DNA from: Paraspadella gotoi
Taxonomy: Eukaryota > Animalia > Chaetognatha
NCBI GenBank assembly: GCA_051294375.1
Contig: CM119266.1
Location: 6,093,431-6,157,430, forward strand
DNA: 64,000 nucleotides
Direction: 5' to 3'
Numbering within the stretch: position 1 is the first letter of the stretch; each line of letters starts with the position of its first letter. A program made the translations under genes and the position numbers. Shown here piece by piece: positions 4,290-61,621 of this stretch. Under the pieces are notes generated by a model that worked only from the letters and a program-made list of their open reading frames with translations, was not told the origin of the DNA and did no database searches.

Positions 4290-4380
4290 GCGTCGGGAAA
4301 GCGAGACGTTACTAGTAAAACCGCGCCAGTGGCAGGGGGCGCCACTGAGGGTCCGAAGCCCCATAGAGGCATTACAGGAC
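4286..4380 (+). mobile_element. Diverged, truncated family-A LTR-like copy (twister core)
   Basis: AAAGCGAGAC..AACCGCGCCAGTG..CACTGAGGGTC.GAAGCCCC aligns to the core of 38337-38592. Confidence 0.7.
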
Positions 4381-6228: not shown

Positions 6229-6442
6229 TATGGTGGACTAAAATCCACCAACCGTTCTCCAGTGGCCATTGGTGCCGGAGGCAAGTCATTCGCCTCCCAA
6301 CCCGGTGGCCGTCCTAGCAGTAAAGAGGGACGGGGCGCTTTACCCGCCTGTAACACGGTGTTACAGCCTGATCCGAAGCTCAGGGACTCCTTATATTGAA
6401 CAGTTCTGTCATTAACATATAACAATAATTACTGTCTCTTCA
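6229..6442 (+). mobile_element. Family-B solo LTR (twister site mutated TAA to TTA)
   Basis: TATGG...TTCA termini, TSD TTTT/TTTT, homologous to 44574-44805 and 47116-47319. Confidence 0.85.
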
Positions 6443-13400: not shown

Positions 13401-16118
13401 GAGACTTGGATCTGGAATCGGCGTTAGTTCGGTTGGAAGAGGAGCAACAGAGAGGCGCTAGTCTCGGTGTGTGTCTTTTGTTTGTTTGTTTGTTTATTTT
13501 GTTTTTATTTTTATTACAATCCCTGTCACAGCTCACGTGAATTCGATGCTGCGTGAACAACTGGACGAAGCGACGGAAGCGAATCACAGTCTCACGAGTG
13601 ATATTCAGAAGATCAGCCAAGATTGGCTCTCCACAAAGGTCTCTTTTATTAATTTATTTATTTATTTGTTTGTTTTACATACTTAATTTTTTTATTTATT
13701 ATTTATTCATTTAAATATTTATTTGTTAATTTATTGGTACATTTATTTAATATTTCATTTTAAGGAGGAATTAAAAATGAAGGAGACGGCCTGGGAGGAA
13801 GAAGAGGCTTCCTTCACAAATTATTACTCGAACGAACACAACAAACTTCTCAGCCTTTGGAAGGACGTCGTCAATTTCAGGTATTATTGTTTTTGTCTTT
13901 TGTTTTGTCTTTTTTTTTCTTTTCATGTCATTATGTTTTGTTTTAGTCTTTTGTTTTTGTGTTAATCTTTTGTTTTTATTTATTGTCTTTTGCTTTTCTC
14001 TTTAGCTTTTGTCTGTTGTTTTTGTCTTTCTTTTTTGTTTTTTGTTTTTTTTTTCTTTTCTTTGGCAAAGATTTTTTATATTTCCCAACATTCTTTCACA
14101 TTAGTGATTCGCTGTGAGGTTTTTTATTATTATTTATAAATTAACTTAAAAAAAGTCTTTATTTTCAATCTTTTCTCATTGTTTTTGTTTTCCTTCATGA
14201 GATGAAACATCCGATTTTGACTAAAGAATAAATATTATCTTGACATCTTGACCGTTGGGCGGACCTCCAGACTTCTTGATCATTGACATGACCTCTTGAC
14301 CTTCTGACCCCCACCCCCGCGTCCTTTCCAGACGCCAATACGTCGAGATGAAGACGGCGAACGAGCGCGACCTCTCGTCCGTCCGCGCGGATGTGACGCG
14401 TGCGATGAGGACGATTCACGCCGGATGCGTTAACGTGGGAATCAAGGTTGGAACGCCTCGTCGAAAATGGGGGGGCGACTGTTAAGCGGGGGTTTTGGGT
14501 GTCATATCATGTCTTTTATCATGTCAAATCATATCATGTCTCTTATATACTATCTACTATCTACCAGTCTCTTAGGAGGCGTGGGTTCGAATCCGACCAC
14601 TGCCACCACATTTAAGTATTTAGACAGGAATTTCAATATGAAACCAAAGTGGATTTTATTCTCAGATATAAGTTATGCGAAGACGGTGTGAGAATTTGAG
14701 ACAGATGGATTCAATACAAAAAACAATCAGTATTTATACAGTTCAACCGGATCATCGACACGGCCTCGTTTTCCCGATGGCATGAAGCCCCTCTTCTCAT
14801 TGGTCCATTCCGATGGTGATTCATCCAATCGGCGCGTCCTTGTTCGATTTCATCCGATTCCGTCTGCGATGATACTATCTACTAAACTACTATACTTACA
14901 TATATATAATATATTATATATAATATATACTTATATAGTGACTCTGTCTCTTATAATATTATGTCCTTTAATATATTATGAAATTGGTATAAAATTATCC
15001 ATTAATTTAATAAACAACGTGCCCCTGACTTTGGACAGGCTTGGGTGGTTTAAGCCCTCCATCACTCTTACAAGATAATGACAAAGAAGGTCCCTGCAAG
15101 TTTTCAATCAAGACTCTCTGACTCTCAGTCTTTTTTATTCACTCCCAGAGTACCTGGCTTCCCTATCAATGAAGTGACATAATATTTCAAGGAATGTGTT
15201 TTGTTCTATTGTCTCTTTTTAAACGTATTATGAATTCTATAAACCTCTTCCTTATCCCATCTCCCCAATCGCACCCCCGCCACACCCCACCCCCCCTTTC
15301 CAGACCCGCGCCTCTGACAACGAGCGATCGTCCCTCATCGGCCGCGAGACGGACTCTCGAAAGGAGGCTGAGTCTCGATTGAGAGAGAAGGAGAGAGAGA
15401 CGGAGGAAGTGAAGAGAGAATCTCAGAGCCGAGTCAGGGCTTTGGAGGAAAAGGTAAGGGAATGATTGGGTGAAGGAGAACTTACCCAAAGGGAAGGATG
15501 TTAAGGGTCAGGATAAAGATTAAATCAGGGATTTGGTTTTGGTTTTGGTTTGAAGATTACGGATGGATATGAAGTATTAAGATGAGAGATTAGGTGTAAG
15601 ATTAAACCTAAGCCTTCTCTGATCTTAGTTAAATAGGGAGCATAAGTATTAACAACTTACATGCTTTGTTCATTTTATAATGATGTCAGAAAAAAAAATC
15701 CCATATGCCTATATTTGAATTCTTAGCTGGGGTCTCCCTAGAGAATCTGCTAGAAAATCTTCCTTTTTTTTTCACCATGGTCTTTGTAAACAGGGAATGA
15801 CTCTTTCCATCGCGATTCATTAATCGATAAATTTTCTGCAATATGCACTATTAGTTTAAACTACCCCAAATTGTAAAAATATCAAGTTTTGCCGTTACAT
15901 GCAATTCTTTGATATAATAATGATTTGTAGGAGACTAAAAATAGACGGTCTCCTCAGATTTGTTATTTTTTAATTTCTCTCCCTCAGTTATCGTTGGTCG
16001 GCGCAGAATTGGAAAAACTCAAATCAGAAATTAGAAGTAAAGAAGAAAAAATCAAAAGTTTGGAGGAAATGAAATTAGAACTGGAGTCGAGAGTGGATCA
16101 TCTGGAGGTGAGAGTGAG

Positions 16119-16149
<31 letters not shown>

Positions 16150-19100
16150 TAATATTAATCATGTTATCATTTTAATCTTGATGACAGGCGGCGAAGAATT
16201 TGACTTCGGGAAAACTGGACGAAGAACAAGAAGAGAAAAAAAGTTTGGGCGACGAAAATGTCGCGTTGAAAGTGAGATTAGTTGTTGTTGTTGTTTTTCC
16301 ATTTTCATTTGGCTAATTTCTCCCATCTATTTGTATATAATTCATTCATTTTTCCCATTTATCAAATATGTACATTTATCACTTCGTTATTATCTTATCA
16401 ATTTGGCTTTTCTATTTGTCTAATTTATATTGTTATTCTATTTCTTTCATATCTAATCCAATAGTCCAATACATGTTTCTGTTCCATTTCACTTATTAAG
16501 ATGTAGTTCGCCCTTTCTTAATCATAAAATCAATTATTGAATATTAATGAGAAACCCAACCCTCATCTCAAATATTTTTATCCAATCACAACTAACTTCT
16601 CAATCTTCCTCCAATCAAAACTCAAATCCTTCACTTACCCCCAACCACCCTCCCACCCCACCCCCTCAAATCCATCCACCCCACTCTCCCCTTCAAAAGG
16701 ACGCCCTCCGCGGCATCGCCTCACTCGTTCTCTCCGACGCCGAGATTCTACCGGACGAAGACGTCGGCGTCGTCGTCGATTCGTGCGGCGTCGTTTCCGG
16801 CTTCGGCGCGGCGTCTGCTGACGACGCCGCCGCCATCTTGGCTCGCGCTGCGTCGCCAATTCGGTCGCGGCCGTCGTCGCCGACGCGGCAGCTGCACGGG
16901 CGGACGAGGAGCGACTCGCCTGGGAGGTGAGGGAAGGTTGAGGGGCGGTTGAGTAAGTTGTATCTCCGGTCTTAGGATTATACACAAAACGTAATTTCAA
17001 GTTTATTACAACAATTTATATAAAAAAAGGGACGTTTATGGATGGTTTTTTTTATAACTGAAAACTGTATATAAACTTGAACTATAAAACTATTTCAGTA
17101 ACTGTCATTACTTCAATATGCAAATGAGATTATAGCACCTAATCTCATTTCATGCTGCATGCTATAGTTATTCTTGATACCGATTTTTCTTGTCTGTTAT
17201 ATTTAAATTGAAGCTTAATTCGTAATTTCTGAATTCCGCTCGCCAGATTCCGCTCTCTCTCCCCACGCCGCACGCCCGCCTTCGTCGAGTCTACCTGCAA
17301 CGCCGTCCAATCCGCCCTCAACAAACGTCAGTTGCAGATCAGGGAACTCCGCGCCAAGTTGCTCGCCAGCAGGGACCAACAGACGCACCTCAAGAAAGCA
17401 TTGGATGATGTAAGTTAGATTTTAAAAAAGGTGAATGAGGATTGGATAAAATTGAATCATTATGGCAACAGCCGGGTTGCCTGTGATGCCCATCGAGATG
17501 GGGCATCTCACTGTTGGCTTTGGGGGCTTCCAACCCTCAGTGACGCATCCAGTCACTTGCGCGGTTACCCCCGGACGGTCTCGCTTTGCCAACGCAGAGG
17601 GATGTCGTGAGGACTGTGGATGGAACACTACGCTTGGGATGGTGTGTTCCCGTGACGTGAGGCGGTGTGAATATACCGCCACATCATAATGTTAAAAGTT
17701 TTTTATCATTAAGAGATATCGCATTAGGCCTTTTACACATTGGGTCATTTAGGTGACCCGGAATTACATGTATTTTGGTTTCTTTCTGTCAGTCTGTATC
17801 ATCTTCATAACTTCTTGAAAGTAGCCATGGTTTGATAAATGGTCCACGCATTTAAAGCGTGTTTTAAAATACATTTTAATGCTCTCAAATTTAATTATTT
17901 GTATAATAATCATTTATTATCATTTAACTGAATTAAATTTTCTTCCAGGTTGTCGGGGAGAAGCAAGATTTGATCCAACATCGTGAGACATCGAAATTAG
18001 AGGCTGAGGATTTGAAGCAGACGAAAATCAATTTGGAGAGAGAAAAGGATTTAGTGAAAGGACAATTGGCCATCGCTAATGTGGAGAAAGGGAATTTGGA
18101 GAGCGGGAGACAGGTAGAGAAGAGAAGAGAAGAGAAAGAGAAGAGAAGAGAAAAGGAACGTCAAGATTATAAAAGAAAATAAATTTACTAGGATTTAAAA
18201 GAAAACAAAGAAAGAAAAAGTTAAAAAAAATAATATAAAAAAATTTCAAGCAGAAATAAGGGGAAAAGAAGAATAAGAAATATACTAAGAAATAAAGAAG
18301 GAAAAAAGTGTAAGATAGAAAATAACATTGCAGAAAATGAATTAAAAGAAATAAATTAAAGAGAGAAGGAAAGAATAGAAAAAAAGGGGGAAAAAAGAGG
18401 AGAAGAAAGATAGAAAAAATAAATGAAAAAAATATTACTTTTAGATAAAAATTATTCAATCAATCAATCTTCCACTCAGGCGCTCCTTGACAAACTAGAA
18501 GAGATCCGCACGGAAGTGGAGCGCGTGCGGACGGCCAACTCGGAGCTCCAACGTCTCCGCGACAACTTGGAGGACGAGAAGGAGGATCTGGTGAAGGATG
18601 CGGAGAGGCGCGCCAAGGAGTTCGTCAGAAATCAGAAGACGATGCAGTGTTTAGAGGCGAAAAACTCACAGTTGAAGGTTTGGAAAGCGCTTGATCTTTT
18701 TTGGAATTAAGTTAAGTTAAGTTCGTTTTTGTAAATATCTTATATTATGAATTAAAGAAACCCTAAAAAATATATTTTACGTACAATTATTTATTTTAAA
18801 TAAAAATTTCAATGAATTTTGTTTTCTTAACGTAAGTCTTTTTGTAATTTTTTTTTCATTTCTCTTTTTTTCTCGCTAAGAATCTACATATTATTTTAGT
18901 ACTCATGAATATATTCTTAATTCGGTTTTATTTTCTTGCTTAACATTTTTCCTCTGTAAATTTTGGTTGATTTTTTATCTTCATAATGATTTCCACTTCT
19001 CTCTTCCGCTCTCTCTATTACTTAATTACTTTCAGCCTAACAATATTTGTTAACAAGATCGATGTCTGTCCTAATTCTCCAGGAGGATCTCTACAAGATG

Positions 19101-20920: not shown

Positions 20921-23900
20921 TTTGAAAGGTCGCGTATCCAAGGTTTCCCCCACTAAGTAGTAAAAGATTGTAATCTTTTACTAATTTAGTCTGTTATTCA
21001 GATACTTGACCAAATTCACAGAGTTTTCTGAATGCTCAAATTTGACTTAATTCACATAATAGACTGCATGCACAAGAATTGACTTAATTCACAGAATGAA
21101 TTCACCGAATTCATTCCCCCCCCAACTTATCTCTCTAGGACTCCGCGCGGACAAGGAAGGGCTCGAGACGGCCGTGTTCGAGTCTCAGCAGCGAATCTTG
21201 ACGCTGGAGAATCGAAAGGAGGCGCTGGAGGCGGAGAATCAGGAGCTGCTGCTGCGGAAGGACGGGCTGCTGGAGGACGTGCAGCGGCTGAGGTGAGGTT
21301 TATGATGTAGCGAGTCACGAAGAGGAGTTTTGAGGAAAGTCTTAACTCTTTAACTATTTAATTTGGTTTGTTGCAAAAAAAGTTGGCTCTTTTAACCTAA
21401 CCTTTTCTTTGAGACAATTAATTTAAAAATATAACAACAGAAACAGTGAAATAATGTTTCTCATCCTAAATTCTGAAATAGTTTTAAAATTACTCTGATA
21501 TTTACAATATTTATAAACATTAAATTAATTTTTATTCCTTTATTCCAAATCGAGTCAGTCTGTAAGAGGCGTTTCATCTTGTCCTTTCACAATGACCTTT
21601 TGTTTTCCCCAGATTCCAACTCGAATCGGACAACGAGAGAAAAGAGAGAGAGAAAGAGACGTTGATCGAAAAATCTGAGAAAGACAATCAAGAGAATCAA
21701 ATTCGGCTGCAGCAGGCGAGGCAGACGCACGAGGAGGACGTGGAGAAACTTACCCAAGAAAAGATTGAGTTGAGGTAAGGCCTCGAGGGTCTTGGATTCG
21801 ATGGCAGCGTTGAGAGTAAGTTTAATTTCTTACTTTTTTTTAACTTCAGATCGCAACTGGAGAAAGCGAGGGACGAAGCTATTTATAGATTGGAGGTGGA
21901 GAAAGAAGAGCTCAACGGAAAATATAATCAAGAGAAGGTAAGTTGGTAAATTAGGTAAGAAGGTTTATTTAAATTTAATTAAATCAGTCGCGAATAACTT
22001 TTTACGAACTGCAATATCTTTAATTGATTAATGTTATTATTATGGTTTTTGTTATCTTATTAAGTTAATATAATTTGTCCTTTTAAGCAATCGCAAATAA
22101 TTTTTCTAGACTGCTTCATATTTTATTTGCTTGTAATTATTTGCTTATCAAGTTATTTCTTTTTTCCCCCAGGAGGAGCTCAACAACGAAATCCTTCGCC
22201 TCCAGAAAGAAAGAGACGATTGTCTTTTGTTGGCGGAAAACGAGAAACAGCAGCGCCTCTCGCAGGCGCAAGCGGACAAGGCCGCCATCTTGGAAAAAGT
22301 CTCCGTCGCCAACAATCAACTCGGGTGAGAATATGAGAATTTATGAACAGTGAATTCATACCAAATTTCAAACATATATGAGGAAAAACATTAACAAATG
22401 CGATATAATGCCTATTTAATTGTTTATAATAACAAACAACATTTTACAGGGAAACTCGCGTCGAATTGGATAAAGCGAAGCGAGAAGCGGAAATGGAAAG
22501 AGAAGCGAGCAAAGAAAAGATTCACGCTTTAAACACAGAAATCCAAAACAACAGGTTTTCATCCTTTCTTTAAAAGATTAAAAATTGGATTAATAGGCTG
22601 CGTTGGTCTCTTGATATCTAAATATCCATCCATCGATCCAACTATCCACACTTCCATCTGTCCATTTATTTTTTTATCACTTTATCCATTTCATCCGTCC
22701 ATTCTTCAATCCATCTATTAATCCATCCATTCAGAAAACCATCCATCCATTTATCAATCCACTCATTGATTAATCCCTCCCTCCTTCCGATCCATATTCA
22801 TTTAACTCATCCATCTATTTGACTGTCCATATATTTATTCATCCATTATGGCAACAGCCGAGTTGCCTGTGATGCCCATTGGGATGGGGCATCTCACTGT
22901 TGGCTTTGGGGGCTTCCGACCCTCAGTGACGCATCCAGTCACTGGCGCGGTTACCCTAGGACGGTCTCGCTTTGCCAACGCAGAGGGAAGTCGTTAGGAC
23001 TGTGGATGGAACACTACGCCTGGGATGGTGTGTTCCCCCTCTGAGCCAATGGATTTGGCTGAACGATGGTGGTCGTGAGGCGGTGTGAATATACCGCCAC
23101 ACCATCCTATATAATCGTTCATTAGTTTAACAATCTATAAATCCATCCATCTATTGATCCATCCTTGGGTCCATTCCTTCATCTATTCATCGAACCCATC
23201 CATTTAATACATCTATTAATCCATCCAAACACCTATTAATCCATTCATACATCTATTAATCCATCCATACATCTATTAATACATCCATACATCTATTAAT
23301 CCATCCGATCCAGATCAGCGTTCGAGGCCTCGACTCTCGCTCAAGAGAAGGAAGTCAAGGAGGCGGAGAATCGCGTCGTGGAGTGGAGACAGAAGAAGGA
23401 ACAGGTCGACCACGAGCTCGCCGAGTGCAAGGTCGGAATAAGAATAATTTTATTAGATATAGCTTTAGAATTTTTAATTTAAAATAAACACTCAATTACT
23501 AAGTACTGAATCGTGGCGAATCAGTCGACCCCGAAACTAAATATTTTGTAAAACGTAGGTTTGAGACGATTTCCTTGTAGATTTTATCTCAGTATCCAAC
23601 ATACAAATAGGATTTAAGTGTCTACTCAAATATTTAGCTACAAAATAAATTTTCTTTAAAAATTAAACAAAATTAATGTTAAAAAGATTTTGAAGGCGTC
23701 CAGGAAGAAGATGATTTTAAAAGTTAAAAAAATAGTAACATTCTGCAATGATCTGCATTGATGTCATTGTAAGGTTACAACAGAATGTCTAGCAGCAAAA
23801 GCTATTCATGCGCTTGTCCTCAAATCTTCAAATCTCCATAACGATTCATCTTCAAACGTTCGTTGCCCAATGCACAGAAGTCCATTGCCCATTTGTCCAT

Positions 23901-32300: not shown

Positions 32301-34385
32301 GTTAATTAAATATAAAAACTGACTTGTTTTTAAATCTAAGCTAAAATATTTTCAACCACAACAGTTTTGACTGACTGACCAGTGACCACGACCTTCCCCT
32401 TTCTTTCGGCACCGCAGATCACTCCGCGCCGGAGAAGAGATGCGGTCCCTCCGTTCCATCCTCGGCGCCGCATCCCCGGGAGCTGGCGACGCCGATGACG
32501 CCGTTGCCGGCGCCGTCGCAGGAGACGGCGTCGATCGATTCCATGACAAAGACGCCGCGGAATTATCGATGGGAAAGAGTCTGAGGGATTCGGGATTCGA
32601 AACGAAAAGTGAGATTTGGTGGATTTGGTTGATTTTAGGAGGGTGAGGGATGTAACTTGATTGTAGGCGGGTAAGGGATGTAACTTGATTGTAAGCCGGT
32701 GAGGGATGTAACTTTATTGTAGGCGAGTAAGGGATGTAACTTGATTGTAGGCGGGTGAGGGATGTAACTTGATTGTAGGCGGGTGAGGTATGTAACTGAA
32801 TGTAATAGTTAATAAAATAGAAGAATTAAAGAGAGAGGGGGAGAGAGAGACGGGCACTTCCTTACCTTATACCTCTCCGTCCTCCTTACCCTCTTCAGCC
32901 GGAGCCAAAGATATCCTTCTTTCTCCGACTCCAGATTTTCGCTCAACATTTTCCGGCAAAAACGATTCCACTCGATCGAGTCTCCGGATTCCGGAATCGA
33001 AGCCGGAATCTCGGCGGAGGACGCCGCCCACCAAACTGGCCGCCGCCGACGCCGCGAGGTCTTGAGATTGGATGGAATGAATGGACTGCAATGAGTGACA
33101 ATGTGCAATTGACGCTAAGGGACTGCCGCTTATAGTTATAGACTGCTATAGTAATTAACGTTTTAAATTTAAACGATTTTTAGTATTTAATCTTGAAGTA
33201 TTTCCCTAATTACTTTTAATTCTTTGTGACAAATAATTTTGTTGCGTTCGTAAATCTATTTTTAAATTAAAAATTTAAAATATTCCATTCTCTGCGATGA
33301 TAGGGTAAGCCTACTCAAGTTTTAAAAAAAATTATTACAAAAATATAAAAGAGAATTAAATTATTTCTTGCCACTTAGATTAGGTACGAGCTTTGGTGTT
33401 TTTTGTCACATAAAACCGTCAATAATTTTATTCTACAAAGAGAATATGCATAGAAATAATAGGACTAATTTATAAAATAAACCACCAAAGCTTGTCCAAA
33501 GTCAGTGACAAGATAGCTTATTTATTAAATGAATGGGTAATTTTTATATTGGTTGTTGATAAAAAAATAATGAAAAATACGGATTTTCTGAGAATTTTAT
33601 GGAAAAATTCCTCCCAAATCGAATTTTATTTTAACGGTTTTGATTTTTTCTTTAGGCCGATGGAAGGTAGACGCCAATTGTCACCAACAAGAACACTCTC
33701 TCCCGTCAGGTACATGATACATAATTATAGGGGTCGCCCCACTCAATGAGGTGAGTCAAAAAGTTAGATCGAGTACAGGCTCAAACGAAAATGTATTCAT
33801 TTTGTCAAGAATACTTTCAATGGGCAAAAAATTTAACCTTTTGTCGACTAGAACGCGCAGCGGTTCTCCCCAGCGCCACCGCGCGGGCGCGACTCACCAA
33901 AGGCTGACGTCGACGCCGGCGACGAAAGTGAGCGACGCCGGAGCGAACTCGGGTAAGTTTTGGGTGAGTTCGGAGAAAATTAGGTTAAAAACTCATTTTT
34001 ATAAACCGGTTTATCAGGTTAATCGGGATAAGAACAGACCTTTTTTTAGAAATTGGGTAATCATTAAGGACAGAATTTTTTTACTACCCCTTGTTAACCT
34101 TTCTTTCCTTTTTTTCTTTTCTCTTCTTTTCCTTTTTTCTTTTCCTTTCCTTTCCTTTTCCTCTCGTTTTCTTTCCTTTCCTTTCCTTTCCTTTCCTTTC
34201 CTCCATATCCAGAGCCGTATTCATGGCAACAACGCGCCACTAGTCCTGATCGTCAATCCGCTTCTCAAACAGACAGCCTTCGCTTCTCCCGCGAGTCCCA
34301 GCTGAGAAGCGGACATTCGAAACCGCTTCCCACGGGGTCGGCCGCGCAAAATGGATTTCAGCGGAGAAGCAACCGAAATTCATGA
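10410..34385 (+). CDS. CROCC: Rootletin (ciliary rootlet coiled-coil protein), about 48 exons
   Basis: GT-AG exons; the junctions I translated join in frame. They give EEESASYRRKLESFHESQQRQAQLVQKLQSKVIQYKRKCSELEQ, LESALVRLEEEQQRGASLAHVNSMLREQLD, YYSNEHNKLLSLW, DALRGIASLVLSDAE, EVDPEGVRVALLDF and RERSHRQRVKGLEEQV, all recognisable rootletin motifs in a long coiled coil. First exons 10410-10608, 11415-11574 and 12771-12972; last exon ends at TGA 34383-34385. The start codon and last three exons are less certain. Confidence 0.93.
14563..14608 (+). pseudogene. 3' half of a mature tRNA-Leu including CCA
   Basis: ACCAG-TCTCTTAGGAGGC (long variable arm)-GTGGGTTCGAATCCGAC-CACTGCC-A-CCA matches the animal tRNA-Leu(AAG/TAG) 3' half. 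Confidence 0.85.
14611..14900 (-). mobile_element. LTR (Ty3/Gypsy-like) followed by a tRNA-Leu primer-binding sequence
   Basis: Minus strand TGTAAGTAT...ATACTTAAA (terminal inverted repeat, one mismatch), with internal CCAAT, TATAAATA and AATAAA in LTR order, then TG + TGGTGGCAGTGG. Confidence 0.75.
14975..15083 (+). repeat. Dispersed repeat (family C); inverted copy at ~59838-59960
   Basis: GCCCCTGACTTTGGACAGG...CTCCATCACTCTTACAAGATAATGACA matches the reverse complement of 59838-59900. Confidence 0.7.
17461..17683 (-). mobile_element. Family-A solo-LTR-like element in a rootletin intron
   Basis: Near-identical to 22847-23101 and 38337-38592 apart from an internal deletion; termini TGTGG...CCATA; 4-bp TSD TCAT/TCAT. 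Confidence 0.85.
17512..17594 (-). ncRNA. Putative twister ribozyme, type P5 (family A)
   Basis: Same core; T1 loop TGG pairs with CCG through a U-G wobble; one P3 mismatch. Confidence 0.62.
19620..19870. repeat. Minisatellite (~23-nt and ~20-nt units containing TTGAGAGTGGA)
   Basis: Tandem GCATGAAAATGTTGAGAGTGGAG units. Confidence 0.85.
22847..23101 (-). mobile_element. Family-A solo-LTR-like element in a rootletin intron
   Basis: Full-length copy; 4-bp TSD CCAT/CCAT. Confidence 0.88.
22898..22980 (-). ncRNA. Putative twister ribozyme, type P5 (family A)
   Basis: Same core as 38458-38541; predicted cleavage between 22953 and 22952. Confidence 0.72.
32641..32797. repeat. Minisatellite, 28-nt unit
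   Basis: Tandem GGGTGAGGGATGTAACTTGATTGTAGGC units. Confidence 0.9.
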
Positions 34386-35307: not shown

Positions 35308-35919
35308 TAAGGCGTAGTAAAATTCCTAAATTTAACTTTAATTAAAATTCTAAAAATGAGGAACGAACAACATTATACTAATGAACATTTATGTAATAAA
35401 AAAATTCATATTAAATTTTACAATTTACGCAGTAGGCAATATTTATACTAATACTAAACCAATAAATGTTCAAATTTCAAAACAGTTTTTTCTAAGATTT
35501 TTTTGCAGATTTGGATTCGTCATAAAAAGTTGGTATAAAGAAATATAACTCTTTTTGAAAAATTCATTCATTAACTGGGTCAAAAATTAAAAAAACCTAT
35601 ATTTTAAGCTGAAAATTAATTTTTTATATATTAAATATATATATTTTAATTTCTAACCCACTTAATGAAAGAATTTTTAAAAATGATTTATATTTTCTTT
35701 TATTAACTTTTGACAAGGAATTCAAATCTGCAATCAAAATTTAAAAAAGCCTATTTTGAAATTTTTCGATTTTATAAGGAAAGTACTATATATAAATATA
35801 GGCTACTGCGAAAATTAACAAATATAAAATTCATTTTTTTTACAAATTAATGTTCACTGATGGTATGTTGTTCATAATTGACTTTTAGAATTTTCGTATG
35901 TAACTTTCACTACGCCTTA
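35308..35919. mobile_element. Diverged foldback/MITE-like palindromic element
   Basis: Ends TAAGGCGTAGT/ACTACGCCTTA; internal arms TTGCAGATTTG/CAAATCTGCAA and AAATTTCAAAA/TTTTGAAATTT are symmetric about ~35620. Confidence 0.7.
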
Positions 35920-38336: not shown

Positions 38337-38592
38337 TGTGGCGGTATATTCACACCGCCTCACGTCCACCATCCGTCAGCCAAATCCATTGGCTCAGAGG
38401 GGGAACACACCATCCCAGGCGTAGTGTTCCATCCACAGTCCTAACGACTTCCCTCTGTGTTGGCAAAAGCGAGACCGTCCTAGGGTAACCGCGCCAGTGA
38501 CTGGAGGCGTCACTGAGGGTCGGAAGCCCCCAAAGCCAACAGTGAGATGCCCCATCCCAATGGGCATCACAGGCAACCCGGCTGTTGCCATA
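38337..38592 (+). mobile_element. Family-A solo-LTR-like element
   Basis: Full-length copy, TGTGGC...GCCATA; 4-bp TSD CCGC/CCGC. Confidence 0.88.
38458..38541 (+). ncRNA. Putative twister ribozyme, type P5 (family A)
   Basis: P5 TGTTGGC/GCCAACA; P2' GCG(A), conserved GA, T1 CCG; short P1; T|AA site at 38486/38487; P2 (C)CGC; T2 GC; P3 CAGTGAC/GTCACTG; P4 GGG-T-CGG-AA-GC-CCC. Confidence 0.75.
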
Positions 38593-38983
38593 CCGCCTTG
38601 CTTTTTTGCTTTTTTGAAAAAAATGAGTTTTGACGTTTACAAGCTGTTGTCTAGATTTATTTTGATTTCAGTGATCTCTCTATTCATTTTATATTTTTTT
38701 TAATTATCAGGTTGTCTCCTAAACTTGTACGAGAGTAACTATGACCTGAATAGTTAATAGTATAAATAACACAAGGGTTGACCGGTTTATTTTAAAATAC
38801 AATTTAAAAATTATCGAAAAAACCGATAAATTATTTTTTTTGTCCACAGAAAGGAAAGAATCATTTACAATTTATTATAAAATCATTTAGATACTAAAAT
38901 AATGGATTGAGCGCAGTCAAAAGTACAACCCGAGTAACACAATTTCAAAATATCATTTTTTTCCGCCTCTTGTAATAAAATAT

Positions 38984-43286: not shown

Positions 43287-45275
43287 TCAATCGTTTGGAT
43301 GTTCAGGGCAAGAGCGATTCACTTCGAACCACCTGTCGATGCAACTGTCACCGAAAAAAGATGAATTTTTCAGTCACAAATATTTAAGGTTTTAAAATAT
43401 TAAATAATAAATAATAAATAATGAAATAGTTAAATATCTAAATTTACCTTTTATGATAAATGCAGAGGCAAGGCAACCGAGCTATGCTATCTCCAGAGTC
43501 CATGTCTTCAAAACAGATCACGCATTCACCGGCTGAGCTGGATAATACATCCTTCTGAAATTTCATTAAATTATGTTTTTAACAAATCGTAAAACGAGCT
43601 CTCTAAACAAAATATATGTTAATATAAACCTCAACCATAATCAGTATCATCGTAGGAAGCTAAATTATAATATAGAATATAGACTTTTTATAAATAAAAA
43701 TTGAGGATGAAACCTAAACCTTAATGGGGTGAAGGGGAAGAAGAAGAAGAAAAAACATATGTAATCCAGAATCAGAGTTTAAAATAGATCTAAAAAGTAA
43801 TAGAGCTGAAAAGTAACTGTAACAACGCAAAACTGATAAAGAACTGACCTGATATGATGACATGACATATAAAATTACAATAGAATTAAAAGTCTCACTT
43901 ACCATTGTAATTTATCCTTGGTTTAGTTAGGCACATGATGAGATGACATTCGATTTCGTCGGGAAGGACAAATTTTGAACAGACGGGACATTTTATACCT
44001 AAAAAATTAGTAAATTATACTGAGAGCGTTTATTCAATTCATGGCATACAATAAAAACGTAGAAAGTTGAACTTTCATTTACGTACATTTAGTATTCAAT
44101 ACAATTAATAATAAAAATTAATGACATTGATTTTTACAGTTGATAGACCGATGAAATTACTTTCCGTCAATAAGTTGTTCATTAAGATATAGTTAACAAT
44201 CCTAATACCTAATACTAATCCTAATACCTAATGCTAATCCTAATACTATTCCTAATACTAATCCTAATACCTAATACTAATCCTAATACTCGTTTACAAC
44301 CAAAGACAATAACACTGTCTACTCCTGAGGATAAAAAATGTTATCCTTTTCTCATTTAAAATAAGAAAGAATTAGTTATATTCGGCTAAAAGAGTTTTTA
44401 AAAACGTCAAACAAAAATATACATAGGATAGGTGAATATAAAATTAAATGTTACGTATACTGCAATATGCAAATACAAATATGGGGAAACAAATACGATG
44501 TTAAAACGGATAGTTGAGATAGAAAGATTAGAGTGTAAATTATCACAGTTATAATATAAAGCTATTATTTCCTTGAAGACAGTAATTATTGTTATGTGTT
44601 AGTGACAGAACCGTTCAATATAAGAAGTCCCTGAGCTTCGGATCAGGCTGTAACACCATGTTACAGGCGGGTTAAGCGCCCCGTCCCTCTCAACTGATAG
44701 GCGGCCACCGGGCTACAACCCCGGACCTTTGGGTTGGGAGGCGAATGACTTGCCTCCGGCACCAATGGCCACTGATGAACGGTTGGTGGATTTTAGTCCA
44801 CCATAGCCTATTAATAAGATCAGACCCTTGAACCTGGTAAGGAGAGGAGGTGGACCGGCAGAGACTGGGCGTGAAAGACGCGGCCGGTCAAGGGTAAGTT
44901 CATTTCCTCCGGAGTGGACGCTTCGCTGGCGGCGGCCTGACCGTAGGCGCCGTCCGCGGAGAGACCTGCAGAATTAGTCGGCGCCGCCGACGCCGCCGTC
45001 GGTGACGCGGCGTCCATTGGCGATGGAAGCCCGTTCCCTTGGGCGCCGGGGATCCCGATCGGGTGACGCCCGTTCTCCACGGCTCCACCGCCGTGGCCGC
45101 TGGGCACGCTGCCCATGCTCCGGGCGCGCGACCGCGCCCCGGACGGTTCGAGTAGCCCGTTAGGTCGCGAGTCATCGTCAAGAACGGGAGCTTCAGAGGC
45201 ACTTTCGTCGAACTGCCCCGAGGCCGGCGATACGATTCTTGCCACGCCAGTATGCGCACTCTGCCTCGCACCCAT
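43287..45275 (-). CDS. ZNRF2: E3 ubiquitin ligase ZNRF1/ZNRF2 family
   Basis: Myristoylation-type start MGARQS, zinc finger KCPVCSKFVLPDEIECHLIMCLTKPRINYN and RING-H2 ECVICFEDMDSGDSIARLPCLCIYHKSCIDRWFEVNRSCPEHPND. Exons 45275-44834, 43998-43903, 43554-43448 and 43344-43287. There is one surplus base at the exon-3 acceptor (see findings). Likely a single co-ortholog of ZNRF1/2. Confidence 0.93.
44574..44805 (-). mobile_element. Family-B solo LTR in ZNRF intron 1, same strand as the gene
   Basis: Full copy; flanks TCCT/GCCT (3 of 4 TSD bases match). Confidence 0.85.
44621..44692 (-). ncRNA. Putative twister ribozyme, type P5 (family B)
   Basis: GAGG-GA-CGG-GGCGCT-TAA-CCC-GC-[CTGTAACA/TGTTACAG]-CCTGA-T-CCG-AA-GC-TCAGG; cleavage between 44674 and 44673. 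Confidence 0.7.
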
Positions 45276-46718
45276 CACGACGCGACCTCGGGTGGGGAAA
45301 TCACGGGACGCATCGATCCGTCGGTCGCGGCGAAGAACACGATTCCTTTTTTCGAACGAAAACGTTTTTGTGCGTAAAAAGACTCATGACCGTATCGTTC
45401 TGTCTCGTTCTCTGTCTGCGTTATAATGCTATGAATAATGACGTCACAAAAAAAGTCTGAGCACGGTCTGAACACGGGATTTCGATGGAGTCGGAGATGA
45501 TCTTTTGTTGGAGGACGAGGGGGAAGAGATTTGGAGGAAGATTAGTTGCGACATCTTTAGAGAAACATATATTTTATTGCGTTTGTTATATACATCATAT
45601 AACACTTGAATAATAGCAAAGCAGTATAAACTATAATTATCGAAGGGCAAGACAATTTTTAAAAAGTACACGATGCCTTAAAATTTAGTGAGTTAATTAC
45701 TTTACGACCGCACGGGCCAAAAGATTCAAATTGATTTTTTTGTAAATATCTTTTCAATCATTTAACTAAAATATTTTTTTTAAATAATAAACTTTTATAT
45801 TCTTGTAACCTTAAACCTAAAACTCAACTTACAATCCGAAAACTGGAAAGGCTCAATCCGAAAAAGCGAAAAAAAAATGCAGCTAATTCGTGATTTTTTC
45901 ATATTTTCACGTATTTTTTTTCCCAAGCAGAGAAAGCTTTTACACCAACAATCAACAATATCATCAAAATAAAATAAGATTTTTGTGACAATTTAAATTG
46001 AACGAATATATTGAAATTAAACTTACGTTTACAACTAACCATTTTGTCCTTTTGTTTCATTAAGCGATAAATTTTAGAATTAAAATCCAAAATGGCCTCC
46101 GGTCTCCGGTCGATAACCTCGTTCTTTCTTTAATTTTCACGCCTTTTTTACGTCAGCCTTTGTGGATTCTTGACGGCGAGGGTGTTTTCTTTCGTAGTAG
46201 TAAATTATAGGCTTCGCCCTACCACTTAAATGTGTGAATCTGTCATATTGGCTTTCAAATTTAATGTTCTTTTTACGTATGCTTAACACGCATGTTATAT
46301 CCGCGTTTGGACTTCAATACGTCGTCACAAGGATTTACTGTTTGTGATATTTTCTGGATTCGTGATTTGTCGTTCGTTGCGATTCATTTCTATCGTCCAA
46401 GCTCAGTATTTTTTGTATATTAATAATTTAATTGGTTTTCGGAATCCTTATTTTTGAATGTTTAAAATAATATCACTGTTGTATTAATTGTTTTAATTTC
46501 GTTGAGTATGCCTTGTATGGTGGACTAAAATCCACCAACCGTTCATCAGCGGCCATTGGTGCCGGAGGCAAGTCATTCGCCTCCCAACCCAAAGGTCCGC
46601 CCACAACACATCAGGCGACATGCCTCAACTTGGTGATGAACTTTCCAACAACAACAATTCACTGAAGAGACGCAACAGACTTCTCCCTACGGGAGGGGGG
46701 GATGTATGGTGGACTAAA

Positions 46719-47115
46719 TGTAAAGTCCAGACGACCGTAACTCAGATGCTCTTTTAATAAAGGAGATATCGACATTCGTCTCTTTCTCTCTTTTGCGGTC
46801 ATTCCAGATTTTGCTCTGAAACGGGACTCTTCTCTAAAATAATAAACGTTTGTGGATGCCTAATGGACACTTAGTGGTTTCTTCATGGATTTGTTTATTT
46901 ATTTACTATTGCTTTGATTAATTAGTATTTCATTATTGTCTGTCTGAATATCTATATGCTTTGATTATTTTATTAAGGTACCATTAAATATCAAGACTCC
47001 AAGTGGATAAGAAACTTTATTATAAACTTTACGGCGCCAGCGGTCCCGGTCTTTAGTCCAGTTTCTCTCCCGACGTCTTCTCCCTCTCCGCTAGGTCGAG
47101 GAGGGGGTTCTTTCA
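46719..47115. mobile_element. Nested solo-LTR-like insertion of a third family inside the family-B 3' LTR
   Basis: TG...CA termini with TSD TAAA (46715-18 and 47116-19); removing it restores TATGGTGGACTAAAATCCACCA. Confidence 0.8.
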
Positions 47116-47198
47116 TAAAATCCACCAACCGTTCATCAGCAGTCATTCGCCTCCCAAACCAAAGGTCCGGGGTTCTAGCCCAGTGGTCGCCTGGCATT

Positions 47199-47270
47199 TA
47201 AGAGGGACGGGGCGCTTAACCCGCCTGTAACATGGTGTTCCAGCCTGATCCGAAGCTCAGGGACTGCTTA
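47199..47270 (+). ncRNA. Putative twister ribozyme, type P5 (family B, 3' LTR)
   Basis: Intact core as in 44621-44692 with one P3 mismatch; cleavage between 47217 and 47218. Confidence 0.68.
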
Positions 47271-47879
47271 TATTGAACGGTTCTGTCACTAACATATAAC
47301 AATAATTAATGTCTCTTCACTTGATTATGTTCTTAATGTACCGCCGGTCCCGCTCGTCCTTTTAAAACTTCTTCCGAAACTAACAGAAAAAAAGAGAAAA
47401 ACTATATATCATCGTCGATCCGCTCCGGCAGACAATTCTTCCCTTAGTAAGCCTTACCATCCAAGTTACCAAAAATAACCGGGATTTACTTGTTAAAACG
47501 TTTACAAGGACATTGGAAAATAATACTGAAAGTGGCAAAACTGTACGCGCTTATGGAAAGGAACGCGTGTGTATTCTCAAAACCCACCAATAACATTTTA
47601 CTTAGCTTCATATTCGTAACATTACATTAGGAAGTAAATTTAATTAATTTTATCTACACACAAAAAAAAAATTTTCTTCCATTTTTTAATCTCTACAGTG
47701 TCAAGTTTTATCGAGTTTTGTAAAAGAGTTAAACTAAAAATACGACCATTGTAATCATAAATAAAAACTGTTATTTTGTAAATATTATTATTATATTTTT
47801 TATAAATTTAGTAATATTTAAATATTCTAATGTTAAATTATTGTATACTTAAGCCGAAACTTAATTTTTAATTTAACTC

Positions 47880-55018: not shown

Positions 55019-61621
<6,603 letters not shown>

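What the first reader, a model, noticed from the sequence alone, without database searches (positions are those of the whole stretch)
38475..38488. Twister P1 reduced to a self-complementary stub in both families: possible dimer-dependent cleavage
Seen: the P1 segments are TCCTAGGG (family A), TTACTAGTAA (diverged A) and GGCGCT (family B). All are too short for a stable hairpin but are palindromic or nearly so. Established: minimal hammerheads in animal repeats use a palindromic stem III and cleave as dimers. Inference: the 5' and 3' LTR twisters of one transcript could swap P1 strands, so only two-LTR transcripts would cleave and intronic solo LTRs would be harmless.
Basis: inference. Interest (0 to 1): 0.72.

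Follow-up and report, generated by a model that had tools for sequence, protein, structure and literature searches.

The report
Twister ribozyme with shrunken palindromic stem
Two high-copy retroelement-like repeats in an animal genome carry a twister self-cutting RNA motif whose first stem has shrunk to a 6-8-base palindrome; each copy likely cuts on its own, but cutting only as a pair remains a live, untested possibility.

Summary
Seven twister cores of type-P5 order lie in the window, all inside two LTR-like repeat families; 0 of 2000 shuffles per family match the strict descriptor. The P1 linker is 8 nt (family A) or 6 nt (family B), against 14-26 nt in 32 of 33 prokaryote and phage cores, and is self-complementary in 6 of 7 copies. 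For dimers: inner pairing by chance is 0.05-0.14 per family; a swapped dimer is predicted to gain 12-13 kcal/mol; the centre varies less than the P3 loop. Against an obligate dimer: P1 is dispensable in twisters, unlike hammerhead stem III; the linker can close as 1-2 bp plus a tetraloop (cCUAGg in A); a P5 stem clamps the fold; the only A-linker variants at 2% or more break the palindrome; a swap would have to exchange P5, P2 and T1, not P1 alone (inferred). Best reading: monomer-competent mini-P1 twister (0.42); dimer-dependent cleavage 0.32; palindrome as pairing handle 0.16. No cleavage or RNA evidence was obtained. 'Solo LTRs are harmless' is untested. New variant of a known kind.

The parts
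38337..38592 (+). Family A solo LTR-like repeat, TGTGG...CCATA, 4-bp target duplication CCGC
   Evidence: very high copy with unlike flanks at both ends
38458..38541 (+). Twister core in type-P5 order: P5 38458-64/38535-41, P2' 38469-72, GA 38473-74, T1' 38475-77, P1 linker, UAA, P2 38489-92, T2 GC 38493-94, P3 38495-38515, P4 38517-19/38528-30, L4 38520-27
   Evidence: sequence
38478..38485 (+). P1 linker TCCTAGGG: 2 bp + CUAG tetraloop as a monomer, 8-bp duplex as a dimer; predicted cut between 38486 and 38487
   Evidence: cut site by homology to the U^A of L1 (PMC8501958, passages)
22847..23101 (-). Family A solo copy, same linker (22954-22961), duplication ATGG; antisense in an intron of a rootletin-like gene
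17461..17683 (-). Family A solo copy with internal deletion, linker TCCGGGGG (centre not palindromic), T1 with one wobble, duplication ATGA; antisense in the same gene
4290..4362 (+). Diverged family A fragment; linker TACTAGTA (4310-4317); paired changes in P1 outer pairs, P3 and T1; one T1 pair and the -1 base depart from the other copies
44574..44805 (-). Family B solo copy, TATGG...TTCA, linker GGCGCT (44675-44680); sense in intron 1 of a ZNRF1-like gene; P5 carries two private mismatches (44625, 44697)
6229..6442 (+). Family B solo copy, linker GGCGCT (6334-6339), conserved A after the cut site changed, duplication TTTT
46516..47319 (+). Deleted two-LTR family B element: partial 5' LTR 46516-46599, 105-nt internal remnant, polypurine tract 46691-46702, 3' LTR from 46705 (twister linker 47211-47216), whole unit flanked by CTTG
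46719..47115 (.). Unrelated TG...CA solo LTR-like insert (duplication TAAA) inside the 3' LTR of the family B element; no twister core

Best explanation
Both repeat families carry a type-P5 twister core whose P1 has shrunk to 1-2 base pairs plus a four-base loop, and each copy likely folds and cuts on its own, with the P5 stem predicted to take over the clamping that a long P1 does in phage twisters. Shown: the core, the short linker, P3 and P5 stems, LTR hallmarks. Inferred: a transcript through both LTRs is cut once in each; the released unit's two ends re-pair (P5, P2, T1) into one composite core, which would set it up for ligation into a circle as in plant LTR retrozymes. The palindrome is then mostly a by-product (loss of the top of an older hairpin leaves a palindrome; CUAG doubles as a stable tetraloop), though it would allow optional pairing.
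For: P1 is dispensable: near wild-type rate without it (PMC5408937, passages); no relation of P1 length, stability or mismatches to cleavage in natural type-P1 twisters (PMC11662667, section 32 part 1). CCUAGG is in the Turner 2004 special-tetraloop list and CUAG fits the YNMG/YNHG consensus (PMC5633025, passages). The only linker variants of family A at 2% or more of depth are A38482>C (3.0%) and >T (2.7%), with no partner change at 38481; both keep a YNHG loop and cut the predicted dimer gain from -13.4 to -6.1 and -8.3 kcal/mol, while the pair-keeping G is not listed. 1 of 3 A LTRs has lost the central pairs. P5 of 6-7 straight pairs in 3 of 3 A LTRs; the Rfam type-P5 model has an 8-bp P1 and no P5.
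Against: The dispensability data come from open-ended type-P1 constructs, not from a closed 6-8-nt linker; PMC8501958 (passages) calls cleavage without P1 inefficient. 32 of 33 prokaryote and phage cores keep a strong P1 hairpin. The monomer P1 adds no predicted stability (0 bp as good as 2). Both families are fully self-complementary (joint chance 0.003-0.02) and GCGC in B is not in the special-loop list. The A38482 variants fall to 0.28% and 0.11% in a second run, like CpG decay, while P3-loop variants stay about ten times higher, so the centre behaves more like a stem. P2 is imperfect in both families. A circle with a monomer-active twister would re-cut itself (inference). An intact sense copy lies 165 nt behind the stop of a TNF-like ORF, before the next AATAAA.
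Confidence: 0.42

Rival explanations
1. Dimer-dependent twister: the monomer folds or cuts poorly; two copies exchange their whole 5' segments (P5 strand, P2', GA, T1') and join through a 6-8-bp P1 duplex, so that two-LTR transcripts (or two packaged RNAs) cut, while solo LTRs and single-ribozyme circles are nearly inert.
For: Palindrome in both families and in the diverged copy, 6 of 7 cores. Predicted swap gain -11.7 to -13.4 kcal/mol at 1 M for palindromic linkers against -2.0 to -5.9 for 8 of 9 long-P1 phage controls (the ninth, with a near-palindromic loop, -12.8). Linker free of common variants in B (only CpG decay among the rows shown) and nearly so in A. Precedent: Penelope and axolotl hammerheads (PMC6765202, PMC7229834, passages). 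Direct two-copy arrangements of B: one in the window, and a 'goes back' joint in 6 contigs of one run and 1 of another.
Against: P1 is not needed for the twister core, unlike hammerhead stem III. The swap needs P5, P2, T1 and T2 of an already folded 5' copy to open (inference). Energies leave out pseudoknots and strain. Centre-breaking variants exist. No covariation of the inner pairs within a family; n = 2 families. No two-LTR copy of family A seen.
Confidence: 0.32
2. The twister cuts as a monomer, and the palindrome is kept for another job: a self-complementary handle by which two element RNAs pair for packaging, as palindromes do in Ty1.
For: Explains both the constraint on the centre and P1 dispensability. 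Ty1 PAL1/PAL2 palindromes are needed for genomic RNA dimers (PMC6844567, abstract). After the cut the whole linker sits at the free 3' end of the unit (sequence).
Against: No direct test here; the autonomous partner element was not seen; in the uncut fold the linker is buried next to the active site (inference).
Confidence: 0.16
3. The cores are slow or inactive in any state; short P1 and imperfect P2 attenuate them so that host transcripts survive.
For: P2 has a C-A mismatch (A) or a bulge (B); below Rfam thresholds; sense copies persist near genes.
Against: All catalytic positions and both pseudoknots are intact in 4 of 7 copies, with paired changes in T1 and P3 between families; P2 flaws are tolerated (PMC11662667, section 32).
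Confidence: 0.1

Closest known systems
Type-P5 twister ribozyme (Rfam RF02684)
   Same: Order P2'-GA-T1'-P1 hairpin-UAA-P2-GC-P4/L4; conserved UAA, GA, AAGC; two pseudoknots.
   Different: P1 linker 6-8 nt instead of 8 bp + tetraloop; extra P3 and closing P5; T1 is CGG/CCG, not CCC/GGG; imperfect P2; sits in an animal repeat; scores below the family threshold.
Minimal dimeric hammerheads of Penelope-like elements and amphibian retrozymes
   Same: Very short palindromic stem next to the cut site; repeats that occur in pairs (PMC6765202, PMC7229834, passages).
   Different: Other ribozyme class; stem III is part of the hammerhead core whereas twister P1 is dispensable; dimer cleavage is shown there and untested here.
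Plant LTR retrozymes (Cervera et al. 2016, PMC4918200)
   Same: Ribozyme inside a 230-260-nt LTR, 4-bp target duplications, polypurine tract, many solo LTRs.
   Different: Animal host, twister instead of type III hammerhead; primer site, full internal region and circles not seen. The animal retrozymes described so far lack LTR, PBS and PPT (PMC7229834, passages).
Twister variants of Schistosoma Perere-3 (PMC8501958)
   Same: Twister in an animal retroelement with a weak or variable P1.
   Different: Type P1 at the 5' end of a non-LTR element, P1 completed by the target site; no palindrome or dimer (0 occurrences of 'dimer').

Membership tests
Twister ribozyme class | L1 with U^AA and GA, T1 and T2 pseudoknots, P2 and P4 stems | tested here: met
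   4 of 7 cores strict, 7 of 7 relaxed; 0 of 2000 shuffles strict; T1 letters swap in step between A and B
Twister ribozyme class | Self-cleavage at U^A | not testable with these tools
   Only contigs were available; no read ends
Type-P5 twister (RF02684) | Permutation with P1 as an internal hairpin and ends beyond P2' and P4 | tested here: met
   order of parts
Type-P5 twister (RF02684) | Score at the family's gathering threshold; long P1 hairpin | tested here: not met
   no hit; consensus P1 8 bp + 4-nt loop; 14-26 nt in 32 of 33 control cores
Dimer-cleaving minimal ribozymes (Penelope/amphibian hammerhead kind) | Short, fully self-complementary stem beside the cut site | tested here: met
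   6 of 7 cores
Dimer-cleaving minimal ribozymes (Penelope/amphibian hammerhead kind) | Inner pairs covary or are protected across copies | tested here: inconclusive
   centre differs between families and pairs in both; within A the only variants break it but are rare
Dimer-cleaving minimal ribozymes (Penelope/amphibian hammerhead kind) | Monomer slow, tandem or concentrated RNA fast | not testable with these tools
   needs a cleavage assay
LTR retroelement / LTR retrozyme | 4-bp target duplication | tested here: met
   exact in 5 of 6 insertions with both ends, 3 of 4 letters in the sixth
LTR retroelement / LTR retrozyme | Two direct LTRs with a polypurine tract before the 3' one | tested here: inconclusive
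   met for family B (46516-47319; joints); not seen for family A
LTR retroelement / LTR retrozyme | Primer binding site; short non-coding internal region | tested here: inconclusive
   deleted in the one two-LTR copy; the remnant has an open frame into the tract with no Pfam hit
LTR retroelement / LTR retrozyme | Circular RNA from double cleavage | not testable with these tools
   no raw RNA reads

The most novel reading that the evidence does not exclude
The first natural dimer-dependent twister ribozyme: a domain-swapped pair that acts as a two-LTR coincidence detector in animal LTR retrozymes, cutting and circularising only full elements while thousands of solo LTRs and the circles themselves stay uncut.
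Probability: 0.28. Interest if true: 0.82.

Novelty: new variant of a known kind. Interest (0 to 1): 0.6.

Why it matters
Either outcome is informative and the test is one gel. If monomers cut, this is a compact type-P5 twister that Rfam misses, in LTR elements of an animal, where ribozyme-bearing LTR retrozymes were described only from plants in the papers I could read. If dimers are needed, the twister class has converged on the trick of minimal hammerheads, which would explain how a fast ribozyme can spread to high copy inside introns and how its circles avoid re-cutting. I found neither claim in print in searches, which cover open-access papers only.

Tried and rejected
No whole genome is held, so copies could be seen only as depth-weighted variants of contigs. 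Run search: no RNA holder listed; runs X9 and X10 are only guessed to be RNA and were not used as evidence of expression. Type-P3 scan: 10 loci, none a convincing type-P3 core by eye. Control set: 72 loci examined, 33 distinct cores kept (P2 4 of 4, P4 at least 3 bp), many of them related phages; patterns demanded canonical T1 and at most 32-nt linkers. MAFFT does not align A and B in register, so pair counts were made by descriptor. Host-gene orientation (2 sense, 2 antisense, 3 unassigned) is uninformative. In one search, 40 weaker variant rows were not shown. Roth 2014, Kosutic 2015, Luense 2017 and Eiler 2014 are not held; they are cited only through reviews, and their supplements may list short-P1 type-P3/P5 twisters. 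Three look-ups in earlier findings returned nothing.

Full report
Setting. The window is animal DNA: intron-rich genes for a rootletin-like protein, an MFS transporter, a chitin-binding domain and a ZNRF1-like RING ligase. No whole genome is held. A self-comparison shows two dispersed repeat families of 230-256 nt. Family A: 38337-38592 (+), 22847-23101 (-), 17461-17683 (-) and a diverged fragment at 4290-4362. Family B: 44574-44805 (-), 6229-6442 (+) and 46516-47319 (+). Both are very high copy: 7781 and 14501 contigs of one run were laid on A and B, with unlike flanks at both ends.

Are they LTRs? Five of six insertions with both ends have an exact 4-bp target duplication, the sixth 3 of 4 letters. 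The unit 46516-47319 is flanked by CTTG and holds a partial LTR, a 105-nt remnant, a 12-purine tract and a second LTR: a deleted two-LTR element. Six contigs of run X2 and one of X5 go back from one end of B to the other, which fits further direct pairs. For family A no two-LTR copy was seen, so its LTR status rests on ends, size and duplications.

The ribozyme. Rfam gives nothing at threshold and 15.2 bits to twister-P1. A descriptor (GA, T1', linker, UAA, P2, GC, P4, U-T1-AAGC) finds 7 cores in the window, 4 strict, all in A and B; shuffles give 0 of 2000 per family, strict. T1 reads CGG/CCG in A and CCG/CGG in B, a paired change. The order is that of the Rfam type-P5 model, whose P1 is 8 bp plus a tetraloop. 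The cores add P3 and a closing P5 (6-7 straight pairs in 3 of 3 A LTRs; 5-6 of 7 with mismatches in B copies). P2 is imperfect in both families. Cleavage itself is inferred.

The P1 linker. It is TCCTAGGG (2 of 3 A LTRs), TCCGGGGG (1 of 3), TACTAGTA (diverged A, in register) and GGCGCT (3 of 3 B). As control I collected prokaryote and phage cores with a hairpin P1: of 72 loci, 33 distinct cores passed the filter; 32 have 14-26-nt linkers folding at -8 to -20 kcal/mol, and the one 6-nt case is the junction of tandem type-P1 twisters. The shrinkage is therefore real. Given the outer pairs, the inner positions pair by chance in 5% (Watson-Crick) or 12-14% (with G-U) per family.

For a dimer. Nearest-neighbour sums on the P2-L1-P1 arm give no gain from P1 in the monomer and -11.7 to -13.4 kcal/mol at 1 M for two arms with swapped halves, against -2.0 to -5.9 for 8 of 9 long-P1 phage controls and -12.8 for the ninth (pseudoknots and strain left out). 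In the contigs the P3 loops carry common variants (19-23% in A, 12-54% in B, run X2), the linker centres do not: B shows only a CpG-type change (4.0%, 0.5%, 0.2% in three runs), like CpG sites in T1 and T2; A shows 3.0% and 2.7% at 38482, falling to 0.28% and 0.11% in run X9 (40 weaker rows not shown). A circle holding one monomer-active twister would re-cut itself, which gives dimer dependence a purpose (inference).

Against an obligate dimer. Twisters lacking P1 cleave at almost wild-type rate (PMC5408937, passages), and P1 length, stability and mismatches did not affect cleavage in a large test focused on type-P1 twisters (PMC11662667, passages and section 32 part 1); PMC8501958 (passages) calls P1-less cleavage inefficient. 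Six to eight bases are enough for 1-2 pairs and a four-base loop. In A that loop is cCUAGg, listed among the special tetraloops of the Turner 2004 set and within the YNMG/YNHG consensus (PMC5633025, passages; that paper notes CUAG is avoided in enteroviruses). The only linker changes at 2% or more in A are to C and T at the third loop base, with no partner change: they keep a YNHG loop and lose 5-7 kcal/mol of dimer gain, whereas the pair-keeping G is not listed. This is suggestive only, as the variants are rare. Losing the top of an older hairpin leaves a palindrome without selection (inference). In the monomer the first and last linker bases pair with each other (recalled from the rice twister structure), while in an 8-bp duplex they lie at opposite ends; so a dimer would have to exchange the whole 5' segment (P5 strand, P2', GA, T1') after the 5' copy has folded (inference).

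Are solo copies harmless? A22847 and A17461 are antisense in introns of the rootletin-like gene. B44574 is sense in intron 1 of the ZNRF1-like gene (splice sites read by eye), but differs from 97-99.9% of depth at 44625 and 44697, which breaks two P5 pairs. A38337 is intact and sense, 165 nt behind the stop of a TNF-like ORF (Pfam E = 0.05) and before the next AATAAA at 38974; whether the 3' UTR covers it is unknown. The claim is open.

Verdict. Most likely each LTR twister cuts in cis, P5 replacing the long P1, and the ends of the released unit re-pair for circularisation as in plant LTR retrozymes (PMC4918200, passages) (0.42). A domain-swapped, dimer-dependent twister is a close rival (0.32); a palindrome kept as a pairing handle, as in Ty1 (PMC6844567, abstract), 0.16; slow or dead cores 0.10. 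These odds are my judgement. Searches (listings; passages also of PMC10085705 and PMC13725137) showed no dimeric twister and no twister in an animal LTR; four primary papers were not held. New variant of a known kind; interest 0.6, 0.82 if the dimer is shown.

Noticed in passing
window 38337-38592 and 44574-44805: Family B begins TATGG (next to the purine tract) and family A ends CCATA, its reverse complement; relative to that end the twister points in opposite directions in the two families. Which end of A faces the tract is unknown.
   Followed up: no
window 38469-38492 and 44669-44689: P2 is imperfect in both families and fixed so: a C-A mismatch next to the active site in A (no variant at 2% or more), a one-base bulge in B.
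   Followed up: partly
window 46719-47115: A third, TG...CA solo LTR-like element (397 nt, duplication TAAA) nested in the 3' LTR of family B; no twister or hammerhead core found.
   Followed up: partly
window 46506-46754: An open frame runs through the internal remnant into the purine tract, as the end of pol often does in Ty3/Gypsy elements (recalled); no Pfam hit. Family B may come from a coding element.
   Followed up: partly
window 44574-44805 (reads): Variants across family B are mostly C>T and G>A at CpG sites (56 of 79 listed places in run X2), as methylation-driven decay would give.
   Followed up: no
L018, L026, L037 (phage contigs): Two type-P1 twisters head to tail, joined by a 6-nt linker between T1' and UAA: a natural case of an equally short junction.
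   Followed up: partly
window 14991-15083, 33478-33556, 55642-55709, 59838-59947: A further short dispersed repeat family without a twister core.
   Followed up: no
window 35344-35894: AT-rich inverted repeat with arms of about 240 nt, 74% alike, MITE-like.
   Followed up: no
window 43287-45275 (minus): ZNRF1-like RING ligase gene starting MGARQS; by eye the phase between the second and third coding exons does not match, so a small exon or another splice site may be missing.
   Followed up: partly
runs X10 and X11 on window 38337-38592: One contig of a run labelled organism B and seven of a biofilm metagenome carry family A pieces at depth under 7; none shows a paired change in the P1 centre. 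Contamination or a relative cannot be told apart.
   Followed up: partly
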